From NCBI GenBank assembly GCA_964016885.1, contig OZ024746.1, positions 72,044,001 through 72,108,000 on the forward strand: DNA of 64,000 nt, written 5' to 3'. The stretch comes from Eledone cirrhosa (lineage: Eukaryota). A model generated the notes under the pieces. It made no database searches. It worked only from the letters and a program-made list of their open reading frames with translations, and was not told the origin of the DNA. Below are positions 4,068-26,937 of this stretch, piece by piece; the stretch's first letter is position 1, and each line of letters starts with the position of its first letter. The position numbers were made by a program, and so were the translations under genes.

Positions 4068-4170
4068 ATGAACCGGAAAACACGAAGTGTAGTGCCGCCA
4101 TAGATTTATTCAACACAATCCAGAGACCAGAAAGGGATCTTCTCTATCACTTAATCCAACATTTAGCTAA
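4068..4170 (+). CDS. Internal exon of a plus-strand BCR/ABR-like RhoGAP-domain gene
   Basis: Acceptor ttgctttttgtcctAG, donor GTGAGT, phase 1 to 2. Encodes EPENTKCSAAIDLFNTIQRPERDLLYHLIQHLA, a RhoGAP helix homologous to exon 34573-34678. Confidence 0.75.
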
Positions 4171-4379
4171 GTGAGTTTTATTTATTACTTCTTTCTATTT
4201 AACATAGTAAATAATTGTAGTTTTGTGAAATATGTGCTTAGGATTGTTTGAAGGGAAGAGAGTACAATGTAAGTTAGAAATAATGAGTGAAAAGTAGTGT
4301 AGCTTTTATATATTTTTCTCTGATTTTCACTCCTTTATTTATAACTTCTATTGTACGGAGAGTTCTTAGCGTTATTTGA

Positions 4380-6050
4380 GAGAGCCACAGCACCCATACA
4401 AGAGCCTCGATTGGAGGAGGAGTAAACATTACTTTGGATCTTGTGAGGCTGATGGGCAGTCCAAAAGCCCGACAAGACCAAGAAAAATGATTCATTATGA
4501 CTTGCATGTCTTTTTGATTGTGTACAAAATCAGCTGCCAAGTTATTGCTTAACAGATTACCAACCTAGATCTCTCCCTCAGTTCTCCCAGATACTCTCTG
4601 GGAGAACCGACGGACAGATCTAGGTTGGAAATCTGTTAAGCAATAACCTTACCAGCGGCTTCAAGCACACTGATACCACGATGGTTGTTGTATATTGATT
4701 TGGAAGTAATAACTTCTCCATATCGCAAAAGTTAAATTGGTGTCCCATCTAGACCAGGGGCCTTCTTGATATGTATTCCCATAATTGCTGATTCTACCTC
4801 AGCCAGTGTAGATAAATTCATCATGTCTGTAGTTATTTCTGTTTTGACGAGACTGTTGATTACATCTAAATCGAAATTTTCCTGTCATCGCTTCATAATA
4901 CCATCAACATCTTTGCACAAAATATCACCAACTCCTAGACAAGACATGCAACTTGCTTGATGAATTGGTCCCAAACCTTGATTGATGAGGCTGTAGAGTG
5001 ATCTTGAGTCTTTTTCTATTATATGCACTTTGAGTTTCTGAGGCAATGCTAGCCCACCACATATTTTTCATTCTTTTCAGTCCCTCGGTGCAATGTTGCT
5101 TTCAATTGTTCCATCCCACATCCAATCAAACTTCACTTCAGCCCTTTCATAAGCCTTCACTGTCTAATTTTGAAAAGTCAGTACATTTAGGAACCCTAAT
5201 CCTACCACTCTTAATTTTCGCCTGACTCGTAGCTTTAATTTACCCCATAAAAAAGAAATGATCCGTCCCACACTCTGCTTTTCACATTACTTTTACTTGC
5301 AAATCTTGTTTTCCAGTGATGATGCTATCTAATATATGGTCATGTTTCTATCTTGGATGTGTCCATTTGAATATCTTTTTTGTTGGAAAAATATATTGCA
5401 AATCACCAATCTAACTTTTTTACAAAGTTGAGGATGTAACCCATTGTCAACCATTTTTCCCTTGACCAAAATATTATGACCCCGACCTACACAAACATTG
5501 AGGTCACCATGCAAAAGGATCTTTTCTTCCCTAGGTTATAGTCGATGCATATACATAAATGATAGTCATAAAACCAGTCAGTGGAACGTGTAGACGCATT
5601 ATTCTTTCGTTGATATCCTGCGGGCGCTCAATTTAGGCAAACACAACGCCATTTTCTCTCTTCTCGCCTTTCAGTCTCCCTATCCAAAATAAGGTATACC
5701 CTGCTACAGCTTCTGTCAAATTATCTTGCTCATTCAATCTTGTCTCTGCAAGTGCAACACTATCTAAGATTTCACGTGCAAGCTATCTTACAATAATCGC
5801 ATTCCTTCGCTCTGGATTCGCAAAACCATCACGGTCCAGAAGTGTCCGTACATTCCAGGTAGTCACCTTAATTCTCACTCGATTACTCAAACGTCTTAAA
5901 TTTCTGTTATTTCTCCTGCATAAACAAACAGCCACCAAATGCAGGATGCTGGCCAGCCTCCAAAAGTAAGCAGGTGATGTTTAGCTCACCTTTCCTAGAT
6001 TCTTCGCAGAAACTGGGTGAGCAACACTCTTAGATAGGACTTGTCAGACA
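4380..6050 (-). mobile_element. Degraded RTE-clade LINE (APE and RT fragments)
   Basis: Minus-strand motifs TWNVRTLLD..ERR, ALAETRL..GYTLFW, GDLN, and DMQVIMNHFS..FGL.IS..SKVM. Confidence 0.75.
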
Positions 6051-6924
6051 CACACTGTTCCACTAAATTTTATTTCTGCTCAAAAACAATACAGCGATGT
6101 TAAGATAAGCAAAATGCCATCTAACTTGCATGTTCATGACTATGTGCTTCCAACATGTTAAGTCTGCACACAGCGCCAATTCCTCTGTCAATGCTGGACT
6201 TTTGAACAGATATCTGCACATAAGATCTTGATAAAATGTGCTTGTGCAACACACATACCACCCTCTTAATCAACACAACTATATACTAGTGAGTGACAAG
6301 CATAAGCAAGATAAATAGAAGCTGTATTAATCGCGGGGGAGTTACCCCTTCTAGGACCCAGGCTGGAATTTCAAGTACTTTCTAAAAATGGTACACACAG
6401 TTAAGTGAACCACATTAAGAAAGACCGGGGTTTTGATGAATTTTCCATTTAATTAATGAAGGCTGGTGGAGCGTCTGTCATGTTCTTTGATCATACATCA
6501 AGCTTCTAAAGAGCACGATATCCGCACACTACACGTTTGAGCAGGCTTACACATACATAAAGAAGGGAAAAAGTTAAAAATTAAAAGATGAAAAATTGTC
6601 TTGTACATCACCTTTCTTTATTTCCTTCTTCCAGTCACTTTTGTGCGCCAGCACAATTCTCCTTGTCCTCTTCTTTCAATCATTTCTATATTTTGTCTGC
6701 CTGTCTGCCTGTCACCCACCCCTTGAATTGTCTCTCTGTCGACCACTGGCTGCTGGTCTCTGTCCTCTGAGACATTTTTGCCCATCACTGTCATTGACAG
6801 CATCTGGCTGTTTTAACAGGTGTTCTAGCGATCAGATTTCTCATTTTTATATCTGTTAAAATGTATATATAAAGGTATATACATATACAAAATATATAAA
6901 AAATATATACATATGTACACACTA

Positions 6925-24200: not shown

Positions 24201-24662
24201 ATATATGTATGTATATATATATGTGTGTGTGTGTGTATGTGTGTGTATAAGTATATATATATATATATATGTATGTATATATATATATATATTTATACAT
24301 ATATATATACTTCTATATATATGTATGTATATATATATATATAAGTATGTATGCATAAGTATATATATATATATATATAAGTATCGGATTTAGCTGTCGA
24401 AACGGCTGGTGCTCAGCTGTCGGGGTCCTGACTCTTTTCCTATAAGTATATATATATATATTATATATATATATATATATATATATATATATATTGTTAT
24501 ACTTTGGGAGGGTCATGTTGCCAATATGAAACACACGCACAACAAATTCAAAAACGAAATATATATATATATATATGCAAAGTTTTATTTAAATTGTTGG
24601 GTTACAACGAGTAAATATTTATAACTGATATAAAAGCACTCAACAAGTATTTGGAGTATATT

Positions 24663-24862
24663 TACGATATTAAATAAATGGAAACTATATTTATAAAACC
24701 ATATTTATTTCATTATATATATTTCAGGGATATCATATTAAAAATATGGTATGCCTTCATCATGATGAAGGCATACCATATTTTTAATATGATATCCCTG
24801 AAATATATATAATGAAATAAATATGGTTTTATAAATATAGTTTCCATTTATTTAATATCGTA
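24663..24862. repeat. Perfect 200-bp palindrome centred on a hammerhead core (family C)
   Basis: 100-bp arms with no spacer and centre TCATCA|TGATGA. Each arm reads UGAUGA-stem II-GAAA-UAUAUA-UA. Confidence 0.9.
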
Positions 24863-25490
24863 TATATATATATATATATATATATATATTCGAAGTAAGG
24901 CGTTTAATGTATCACACACGGTTCAGAATATAGGAAAAAGGAAGTTGAAAATGCAATTGGGGTCTTTATTTACAATAATTTATGACTTTACTGATTTCAT
25001 AAGTTTCATGATTTTCAAACGCAAAAGAGATGGAGAGATATATGGCTATGCCGACTTGTATCTCGCATCTAATTGAATTTGGGAATTTTTTCAGCTTTAT
25101 ACAAACAATCTGGCTCTGATTACTTTATGTTTGAAGTACAGTTTGATAGTTTCAGGAAGATTATGTCATTAGGCCTCGAATTTTTTGGTAATTTCGCGCT
25201 AAAAGTCAGAAGTGTCTCGATCCTTTCAGTTTTTTTACAGAAAACTGACTCAAGTTAAAATTATAATTTGATTAGCTGAGGATTATCACGTGATTATGCA
25301 TCGAGTTTTGTGATACTTTCACGACAGATAGTGTTAGTAATAGAAATCTCAATGGAAACGTTTTCATCATCTCATCTGATGCTCGGCTCCTTCCGTTTGT
25401 AGTTTTCATCCAGCAGACTTATGATTAAAGGTGCTTCACATATGACTATACCCCATCCTTACTTTTTTTTTTCGATTTTTTTTTTCACAG

Positions 25491-26937
25491 TTTGTACCTG
25501 TTGTCTGACAAGAAAATACCAAAACCTGATTGCATTCTAAAATTATTCGCTTCCATCCTTCTTCTACCCCTCATACACCCGTATACCCATACGGAATTCA
25601 GAAGCAAAGCTGAAATGTTTGCCTCAATACTCGAATATTTCGTATTTTTGAGAATGAATGATGTAAGCTTTAGCTCTATAGAGCAACCCACTAAACCTGA
25701 ACCAGAGCAACCCACTGAACCTGAGGAACTCACTGAACCTGAATCAGAGGACCCCAATGAACCTGAACCACCAGCCAAGATTTCCGCGCGCACCGCGAAA
25801 TCTGAGGAGAACTTAGAACCTAAAACCACAGACAAAAGAAAAAAGAGAGAATCACAAACTAAAAAGGTGTCAAACAAGAAACATAACTCAGATGGTCCGT
25901 TGAGGAAGAGAGATGACAACGAAATGGCTGCACCAAAGACTGGGAATGGGAGTAGAAGTGTAAACAGAAGTCCGAATAAGGGGGGTGGAAAGTCAAAGGC
26001 AACTCCAAGTAAGGACAGTGGAAAGTCAAAGACAACTCCGAGTAAGGACAGTGGAAAGTCAAAGACACCTCCGAGTAAGGATAGTGGAAAGTCAAGGACA
26101 AGTCCGAGTAAGGATAGTGGAAAGCCAAAGACAGGTCCGAGTAAAGACAGTGGAAAGTCAAGGACAAGTCCGAGTAAGGATAGGGGAAAGCCAGGGACAA
26201 GTCCGAGTAAGGATAGTGGAAAGCCAAGGACAGGTCCGAGTAAAGACAGTGGAAAGTCAGGGACAAGTCCGAGTAAGGATAGTGGAAAGCCAAGGACAAG
26301 TCCGAGTAAAGACAATGGAAAGTCAGGGACAAGTCCGAGTAAGGATAGTGGAAAGCAAAAGAGAAGTTCAAGTAAGGAGAGTGGAAAGCAAAAGAGAAGT
26401 TCAAGTAAGGAGAGTCAAAGCTCTAAGGCTAGTACAAGTAAGGAGAGTGTAAAGCGAAAGAAAAGTCCGAGTAAGGATAGTGAAAAGCTAACGAGAAGTC
26501 TGAGTAAGGAGAGTGGAAACCTAAAGAAAAGTCCTAGTAAGGAGAGTGGAAAGCAAATGAGAAGTCAGAGTAAAGATAGTGGAAACCTAAAGAAAAGTCC
26601 GAGTAAGGATAGTGGAATGCTAACGAGAAGTCTGAGTAAAGAGAGTGGAAAGCTAAAGAAAAGTCCGAGTAAGGAGAGTGGAAAGCTAAAGAAAAGTCCG
26701 AGTAAGGAGAGTGGAAAGCTAAAGACAAGTTCGAGTAAGGAGAGTGGAAAGCTAAAGACAAGTCCGAGTAAGGATAGTGGAAAGCTAAAGAGAAGTCTGA
26801 GTAAGGAGAGTGGAACGCTAAAGAGAAGTCAGAGTAGGGACAGTGGAAAGCTAAATAGTTCAAGTAAGGAGGGTAAAATCCGTGAAAAGGAGTCAATAAA
26901 TCAAGATGAAGAAGAGACGAACGAGGCAGAAAATTAG
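25491..26937 (+). CDS. Terminal exon B (duplicate of exon A) with an 11-aa SKDSGK..SP repeat tail
   Basis: Acceptor ..tttcacAG at 25489-25490, same phase 2. LYLLSDKKIPKPDCILKLFASILLLP aligns with VYLLAAKEVPRPDGLIKVIASVILMP. The upstream intron is also similar to 12640-12708. Confidence 0.75.
25977..26860 (+). repeat. Coding 33-bp tandem repeat (SKDSGKSRTSP / SKESGKLKKSP)
   Basis: Visible 11-aa periodicity. Confidence 0.9.

What the first reader, a model, noticed from the sequence alone, without database searches (positions are those of the whole stretch)
4068..26937. One RhoGAP exon, two duplicated terminal exons with independently evolved repeat tails
Seen: exon 4068-4170 splices in frame to both 12709 and 25491. 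These share phase, upstream intron sequence and the first 60 aa, then diverge into 24-bp (8-aa) versus 33-bp (11-aa) arrays. I found no second copy of the upstream exon between them. Inference: alternative last exons swap an approximately 1100-aa versus 420-aa basic disordered tail on a RhoGAP-fold protein.
Basis: partly seen in the sequence, partly recalled or inferred. Interest (0 to 1): 0.7.

Follow-up and report, generated by a model that had tools for sequence, protein, structure and literature searches.

The report
Octopod Rho regulator with two tails
An octopus-type gene for a Rho-signalling regulator that lacks the usual catalytic arginine ends in two duplicated last exons, which likely let the cell choose between two long, positively charged repeat tails; the splicing trick is well known, but this gene and its tails were not found in the papers searched and no RNA was available to confirm the choice.

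Summary
Exon 4068-4170 joins in frame to exon A (12709-16237) and to exon B (25491-26937). It is exon 19 of a BCR/ABR-type gene (DH-PH-C2-RhoGAP) that starts 59 kb before the window; all 19 shared exons form one unbroken frame, giving proteins of 1912 aa (A) or 1218 aa (B). A and B share only their first 61 codons, the end of the RhoGAP-like domain (43% identical, dN/dS 0.36). Their tails (1114 and 420 aa; 8-aa and 11-aa arrays) resemble neither each other nor the 223-aa Octopus vulgaris tail beyond composition. No upstream exons lie between A and B, and the neighbouring paralogue has its own last exon. Alternative last-exon use is inferred, not shown, because no RNA run was listed. The mechanism is a known one (77 human cases, such as KRAS 4A/4B). 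What is unusual is the size and repeat turnover of the swapped tails on an unstudied octopod gene cluster.

The parts
4068..4170 (+). Exon 19, the last shared exon; third exon of the RhoGAP-like domain; phase 1 in, phase 2 out. Exons 1-18 lie upstream of the window (G000:C6:71984535-72037320).
   Evidence: (83% identity to O. vulgaris P0005); single match in the genome search
12585..12708 (+). Intron flank homologous to that of B, with a shared ATTAAA hexamer (12653-12658), the pyrimidine tract and acceptor A
12709..16237 (+). Last exon A, coding part: 61 codons ending the RhoGAP-like domain, then a 1114-aa basic tail, stop TAA
13087..13597 (+). Two short 36-bp (12-aa) arrays in tail A (13087-13280, 13462-13597)
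13978..15790 (+). 24-bp array, about 75 copies of an 8-aa K/R/S-rich unit (ERSKAGSK type); matched only here in the genome search
16266..16271 (+). Candidate proximal polyadenylation signal (variant ATTAAA); the next AATAAA is at 17572
   Evidence: motif only
25374..25490 (+). Intron flank homologous to that of A, with ATTAAA (25424-25429), the pyrimidine tract and acceptor B
25491..26937 (+). Last exon B, coding part: 61 codons ending the RhoGAP-like domain, then a 420-aa basic tail, stop TAG
25968..26855 (+). 33-bp array, about 27 copies of an 11-aa unit (PKTSPSKDSGK type); matched only here in the genome search
27792..27797 (+). Candidate distal polyadenylation signal (AATAAA followed by a GU/U-rich stretch)
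   Evidence: motif only

Best explanation
This is the 3' end of an octopod BCR/ABR-type gene (DH-PH-C2-RhoGAP) with a duplicated last exon; the shared donor at 4170 likely splices to either copy, which would give a 1912-aa or a 1218-aa protein with the same core, a likely catalytically dead RhoGAP domain and one of two different basic repeat tails. Shown by sequence: the 19 shared exons, the two in-frame acceptors, the homologous 61 codons, the lost arginine and the unrelated arrays. Inferred: splicing to A with 3'-end formation at the weaker proximal signal gives isoform A; skipping A and using the canonical distal signal gives isoform B. Inferred function: a pseudo-GAP scaffold whose tail is an electrostatic anchor to acidic polymers (nucleic acid or chromatin, microtubules, membrane lipids) switched by different kinases. 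Tail A has 101 RS/SR dipeptides and 67 RxxS/T motifs (SR-protein-kinase or PKA type). Tail B has 15 S/T-P-x-K/R motifs (CDK type) against 1 in A. The kinase assignments rest on recalled consensus motifs. A germ-line or sperm role is my guess from the fast divergence and composition, with no direct evidence.
For: Unbroken 19-exon frame with GT donors and AG acceptors at all 18 shared introns, closing on either exon. Exon sizes 78/135/103 and phases match the three neighbouring paralogues (78/135/106) and an arginine-bearing RhoGAP gene with an upstream C2 exon on C4 (78/141/106). Both copies are constrained as domain ends: dN 0.42, dS 1.17, ratio 0.36; pN/pS bootstrap interval 0.37-0.79; second codon positions 79% identical against 51% at third positions. 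If one copy had drifted neutrally for half of dS, dN would be expected near 0.58 or more (inference). Conservation runs upstream of the first methionine of each exon (14 of 24 and 25 of 41 residues identical to O. vulgaris), so these codons are likely read from an upstream exon. In a substitution-only neutral simulation B's 159 pre-array codons stayed open in 1 of 600 runs at 0.58 changes per site and in 5% at 0.2. In 474 kb the profiles gave 4 copies each of RhoGAP exons 2 and 3 but 5 strong last exons. The minus-strand neighbour has its own last exon at 30436-30658. Core identity to O. vulgaris P0005 is 372 of 576; the Atlas places P0005 with BCR/ABR clusters (0.92-0.94; 10 of the ten best hits with a family share a family or clan).
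Against: No transcript evidence of either junction. The open frames cannot exclude recent loss of B: at 0.05 changes per site 37% of simulated copies stayed open. The arrays show no clear amino-acid constraint: distinct variant alleles were 8 synonymous, 14 non-synonymous and 0 stop in A (possible 17/50/5) and 6/29/0 in B (possible 19/76/4); zero stops has a chance of about 1 in 6 in each, by my arithmetic. The +1 frame of tail A is also open for 990 codons, so long open frames come cheaply in this composition. The O. bimaculoides record P0006 and the unnamed P0001 both begin at a methionine inside the last exon, which is what a stand-alone last-exon transcript would look like. The polyadenylation signals are motifs only. 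Exon 19 and exons A and B give no Pfam RhoGAP match on their own, and the last exons barely match the C4 last exon (13 and 147 of 1000 shuffles reached the score). Nothing here tests what the tails bind or where the gene is expressed.
Confidence: 0.7

Rival explanations
1. One or both last exons are transcribed mainly from their own internal promoter and make a tail-only basic protein; the full-length gene uses only one of them.
For: P0006 (O. bimaculoides, 275 aa, longest contig 117 Mb) and P0001 (300 aa) are recorded as proteins that start inside this exon. Both flanks keep an ATTAAA about 55-65 bases before the acceptor. A has an in-frame ATG in its intron flank.
Against: The methionine used in P0006 and P0001 is not kept in A or B; B's flank ATG is out of frame; conservation extends upstream of the first methionine in both; gene callers give such starts for partial models and short contigs (own knowledge); the O. 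vulgaris model P0005 joins the exon to the upstream core.
Confidence: 0.12
2. Only the proximal exon A is used now; B is a former alternative or a displaced older last exon that has recently fallen silent.
For: A lies first and would capture the donor; B needs a 21.3-kb intron and read-through of several AATAAA/ATTAAA hexamers. An open frame survives low divergence often (37% at 0.05). B's array shows no excess of synonymous variants.
Against: B keeps an intact acceptor, phase, 482 open codons, an array without indels and a canonical distal signal; branch lengths from O. vulgaris are alike for A and B (0.49 and 0.53).
Confidence: 0.1
3. B is the end of a separate paralogue whose upstream exons were deleted, lie elsewhere or are misplaced in the assembly (for example an inverted last exon of the minus-strand neighbour).
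For: The locus is a cluster of four paralogues in mixed orientation, so rearrangement has happened here.
Against: The neighbour has its own last exon. Genome searches found one copy of exon 19, two of the last exon and one set of close matches to P0005 (a stricter search that is a floor). B is closer to A and to the O. vulgaris orthologue (43%, 54%) than any paralogue is. The 414-kb region holds no N.
Confidence: 0.05
4. A and B are used in series through an internal donor in A (phase 2 at 12853), giving a protein with the domain end twice and tail B.
For: A CAG|GTATTT site in the right phase exists at 12853.
Against: The site is weak, is not kept in B, and would repeat 48 residues of the domain end; it would leave A's 1114-aa frame unexplained.
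Confidence: 0.03

Closest known systems
Tandem duplicated 3' coding exons used through alternative poly(A) sites (PMC8373072, passages read; PMC9741552, passages read)
   Same: Homologous last exons in tandem; the part that completes a domain is conserved and the disordered part is not. The papers count 77 C-terminal cases among 236 human events.
   Different: The human swapped regions reach just over 250 residues; here the swapped parts are about 1175 and 481 aa, nearly all of it non-homologous repeat tail. Use of both exons is inferred here, not annotated.
KRAS exons 4A/4B (PMC9882654, passages read; PMC8373072)
   Same: Homologous 3' exons that finish a folded signalling domain and add different basic C-terminal targeting sequences.
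   Different: KRAS tails are 22-23 aa with CaaX lipidation; these tails are 20 to 50 times longer, repeat-built and have no cysteine. KRAS4A is said to come from NRAS by insertion, whereas A and B look like a local duplication.
BCR/ABR family (DH-PH-C2-RhoGAP; Pfam PF00621, PF00168, PF00620); O. vulgaris CAI9724816.1 and O. bimaculoides XP_014782264.1 as orthologues
   Same: Domain order and RhoGAP exon sizes and phases shared with an arginine-bearing paralogue on C4.
   Different: Arginine finger replaced by V here and by I, L and A in the three neighbours; DH domain under the Pfam cut-off; the C4 gene and the neighbours stop right after the domain, with no tail. The Octopus orthologues each have one recorded tail of 223-228 aa without a long array.

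Membership tests
Tandem duplicated alternative last exons | Two homologous coding last exons in tandem on one strand behind one donor, same phase, each completing the domain | tested here: met
Tandem duplicated alternative last exons | No separate upstream exons for the distal copy | tested here: met
   (0 of 19 exons in 16238-25490, with a positive control)
Tandem duplicated alternative last exons | Each exon has its own polyadenylation site | tested here: inconclusive
   ATTAAA 16266 and AATAAA 17572 after A; AATAAA 27792 with GU/U-rich downstream stretch after B; motifs only, common in A+T-rich DNA
Tandem duplicated alternative last exons | Both junctions occur in transcripts | not testable with these tools
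   no RNA holder listed; the three listed runs behave as DNA
BCR/ABR family | DH-PH-C2-RhoGAP domain order | tested here: met
   P0005: C2 over cut-off, RhoGEF E 0.02 under cut-off; Atlas BCR/ABR clusters 0.92-0.94; window gene 65% identical to P0005 over the core. PH rests on the Atlas clusters only.
BCR/ABR family | C-terminal RhoGAP-like domain homologous to canonical RhoGAP | tested here: met
   scores 77 and 72 against the C4 domain, shuffle maxima 58 and 54 of 1000; chain gene 1-gene 3 E 9e-18, gene 3-C4 E 5e-18; neighbour exons hit PF00620 under the cut-off
Active RhoGAP (PF00620) | Arginine finger in the alphaA-alphaA1 loop (PMC9378701, passages read) | tested here: not met
   aligned position is R in the C4 and two control domains, V in this gene, I/L/A in the neighbours
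Active RhoGAP (PF00620) | GAP activity on a Rho-family GTPase | not testable with these tools
   needs an assay
BCR/ABR family | Exchange activity of the DH-PH module | not testable with these tools
   needs an assay; DH is divergent

The most novel reading that the evidence does not exclude
Octopods have turned BCR/ABR duplicates into a cluster of four arginine-less pseudo-GAPs, and in this lineage one member uses a splice switch to choose between two kilobase-scale repeat tails read by different kinases (RS type versus CDK type). That would move the same Rho-scaffold core between chromatin or cytoskeleton compartments at different steps of sperm or germ-cell development, with the tail rebuilt from a new repeat unit at least three times (A, B and the Octopus tail).
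Probability: 0.2. Interest if true: 0.65.

Novelty: new variant of a known kind. Interest (0 to 1): 0.42.

Why it matters
It is a clean natural case of one protein core carrying alternative long basic tails whose sequence has turned over completely while size class and charge stayed, so it can test whether composition alone is what such tails need. It also flags an octopod cluster of four BCR/ABR-derived genes that all lack the RhoGAP arginine, and shows that the public Octopus models are incomplete (P0005 lacks about 155 residues, core positions 546-701; P0006 is the last exon alone). The splicing mechanism itself is ordinary, and without expression data the biology stays open.

Tried and rejected
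Expression: no RNA holder listed. The three listed runs (at most one sample) read across acceptor A without differences where a contig covers it (12663-13131 in 2 of 3 runs), so they act as DNA and say nothing on splicing. Homologue searches: exon B residues 1-70 against proteins of 264-842 aa, 0 of 14 candidates; profile of A+B against 1.84 billion representatives, 2 hits, of which P0002 is a repetitive chance match that I dropped; longer proteins, 3 of 518 candidates; P0005 residues 250-660, only itself among 5191. One recorded last exon per Octopus species is weak evidence for a single copy there, since the models are incomplete and those genomes could not be searched. PDB search with P0005: 3 weak hits. 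Atlas search with exon B: no usable hit. AlphaFold of B's first 73 residues without alignment: two helices, pLDDT 66, pTM 0.43; not searched further. Tree of 9 last exons: all 6 inner branches open, A+B support 54/52, so the age of the duplication relative to Octopus is unresolved; only 4 of 61 sites unite A and B against O. vulgaris. A sixth last-exon candidate 156 kb beyond the window (score 16) has no acceptor and a short frame and was rejected. The C181 RhoGAP locus was checked as a possible relative and gave no match. Literature: no paper held the terms; one search listed 2 unrelated papers; some searches gave listings only. PMC6341066 names an 'ABR' transcript as induced in heat-stressed male Octopus maya (one passage read); it cannot be tied to this paralogue and its supplements were not opened. 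A likeness to squid neurofilament tail variants is recalled and was not confirmed.
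Full report
Observation. Exon 4068-4170 (103 bases, AG acceptor, GTGAGT donor) ends in phase 2 and reads in frame into 12709 and into 25491, each to a single final stop. The two exons align without gaps over 61 codons, 43% identical in protein, and their intron flanks align better than any of 500 shuffles, by a thin margin (32 against a maximum of 31). After that they diverge into a 24-bp array of 75.5 copies and a 33-bp array of 26.9 copies, with no indels. Each array matched only its own place in the genome search, which scored 150 of 2902 and 150 of 571 candidates. The tails are 1114 aa (K+R 28%, net +167, pI 10.8) and 420 aa (K+R 25%, net +50, pI 10.1), with 5-6% hydrophobic residues and no cysteine.

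The gene. The window is G000:C6:72044001-72108000 in a 3.0-Gb genome. A profile of the two exon starts found an O. vulgaris protein (P0005, CAI9724816.1, 870 aa), an O. bimaculoides protein (P0006, XP_014782264.1, 275 aa) and an unnamed protein (P0001), 3 of 518 candidates. P0005 mapped upstream exons from 59 kb before the window; the exons it lacks were found by comparison with the neighbouring paralogues. The 19 shared exons have AG and GT at all 18 introns and form a 736-aa core, 65% identical to P0005 (372 of 576 aligned residues). Closed with A the protein has 1912 aa, with B 1218 aa. Two donors (GTTTGT) are weak and those boundaries are my best fit. P0005 has a C2 domain over the Pfam cut-off and a weak RhoGEF match, and the Atlas places it with BCR/ABR clusters. 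The organism is an octopod distinct from the two Octopus species, by protein divergence: they are 42 of 47 identical to each other in this exon, against 27 and 23 of 47 for A and B.

The RhoGAP domain. A genome search with PF00620 gave two weak hits near the window, which led to a cluster of four related genes: this one (+), a neighbour on the minus strand inside the window, and two more 140-190 kb beyond it. All four share exon sizes and phases with an arginine-bearing RhoGAP gene on C4 that has a C2 exon upstream; I take it to be the canonical ABR-like gene, which is an inference. The domain of this gene scores 77 (with A) and 72 (with B) against C4, above all 1000 shuffles. At the arginine-finger position (defined in PMC9378701, passages read) C4 and two control domains have R; this gene has V and its neighbours I, L and A. 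The domain is therefore likely a pseudo-GAP. P0005 lacks these exons, so the position could not be read in O. vulgaris. The three neighbours and C4 stop right after the domain; only this gene and its Octopus orthologues carry a basic tail.

Is B a separate gene? None of the 19 shared exons has a copy between A and B; the control search found exons of the far more distant neighbour. The interval is microsatellites and dispersed repeats. Over 474 kb there are four copies each of RhoGAP exons 2 and 3 but five strong last exons (the first RhoGAP exon was listed three times there because of a length filter, and the fourth was found). The minus-strand neighbour has its own last exon at 30436-30658, so B is not its inverted end. 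Genome searches gave one match for exon 19 and two for the last exon.

Are both copies functional? Over the 61 shared codons dS is 1.17 and dN 0.42 (ratio 0.36), pN/pS was below 1 in 999 of 1000 bootstraps, and second positions are 79% identical against 51% at third positions. A and B are about equally far from O. vulgaris (56% and 54%; branches 0.49 and 0.53). Conservation runs upstream of the first methionine of each exon (14 of 24, 25 of 41). Under neutral substitution B's 159 pre-array codons stayed open in 1 of 600 runs at 0.58 changes per site but in 37% at 0.05; A's 427 codons in 0 of 300 at 0.1 and 7% at 0.05. So both were constrained for most of their history, but recent loss of B is not excluded. 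Against over-reading: the arrays show no clear amino-acid constraint, and the +1 frame of tail A is open for 990 codons as well, which follows from the lack of hydrophobic codons (inference).

The tails. A, B and the O. vulgaris tail show no similarity beyond composition: in 8 pairings, 35 to 93 of 200 shuffles reached the observed score, whereas the O. vulgaris tail against P0006 and P0001 was reached by 0 of 200. Tail A has 101 RS/SR dipeptides and 67 RxxS/T motifs; tail B has 15 S/T-P-x-K/R motifs against 1 in A. Reading these as SR-kinase/PKA and CDK sites rests on recalled consensus motifs. Whether the duplication predates the split from Octopus is unresolved (tree support 54/52).

How it likely works. 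The donor at 4170 chooses acceptor A (8.5-kb intron), with 3'-end formation at a variant ATTAAA (16266) or at 17572, or skips to acceptor B (21.3-kb intron) with a canonical AATAAA at 27792 followed by a GU/U-rich stretch. Either exon supplies the last helices of the RhoGAP-like fold (two helices predicted for B's start, low confidence) and then a different charged tail. I commit to: a non-catalytic Rho scaffold with a splice-selected, phosphorylation-switched electrostatic anchor. The exon structure is shown; splicing choice, lack of catalysis and the anchor role are inferred; a germ-line role is a guess. Splicing could not be tested: no RNA holder was listed and the listed runs act as DNA. 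The main rival, last-exon-only transcripts, draws on P0006 and P0001 starting inside this exon.

Known kinds and novelty. Duplicated 3' exons used through alternative poly(A) sites are a described class: 77 of 236 human events, including KRAS (PMC8373072, passages), with the domain part conserved and the disordered part not (PMC9741552, passages; PMC9882654, passages). This case differs in scale (about 1175 and 481 aa swapped against a human maximum just over 250) and in the repeat turnover. Searches for the gene or family in print found nothing relevant, within a library that lacks most subscription papers. Earlier unchecked notes of this scan report duplicated or alternative last exons in HAT1, calponin and GRP94 genes of the same genome, which would make the arrangement less exceptional here; I did not test them. 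Verdict: real, a new variant of a known kind, interest 0.42.

Noticed in passing
window 30436-48147, minus strand (exons 30436-30658, 34573-34678, 35487-35621, 36286-36363, 38514-38575, 39996-40141, 46511-46576, about 47935-48147; continues beyond the window): A second BCR/ABR-type paralogue converging on this gene; also lacks the arginine finger (I) and has no long tail.
   Followed up: partly
G000:C6:72246720-72249775 (+) and 72288620-72296935 (-): RhoGAP-like exons of two further paralogues of the cluster, arginine replaced by L and A, no tails.
   Followed up: partly
G000:C4:92376633-92381678 (+), L088: Arginine-bearing RhoGAP gene with the same exon phases and an upstream C2 exon; likely the canonical ABR-like gene.
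   Followed up: partly
window 12870-15842 (+): The +1 frame of exon A is open for 990 codons, and two minus-strand frames over the array for 556 and 347 codons; probably a by-product of composition.
   Followed up: partly
window 12653-12658 and 25424-25429: ATTAAA hexamer kept in both intron flanks about 55-65 bases before the acceptors although synonymous sites are far diverged; role unexplained.
   Followed up: no
window 698-1252 (+), about 1900-4000 (+), 30906-33300 (-), 59515-63094 (+): Decayed LINE-type retrotransposon pieces (zf-RVT matches for 698-1249 and 62444-63091; the others by appearance of the frames).
   Followed up: no
window 52040-54820 (+): Three overlapping open frames of 229, 248 and 342 aa inside an intron of the minus-strand gene, with no Pfam match over a cut-off; may be a broken DNA-transposon gene.
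   Followed up: no
P0005 residues about 660-740: The O. vulgaris tail appears to have its own three-copy K-rich repeat of roughly 31-37 aa, by eye, different from both arrays here.
   Followed up: no
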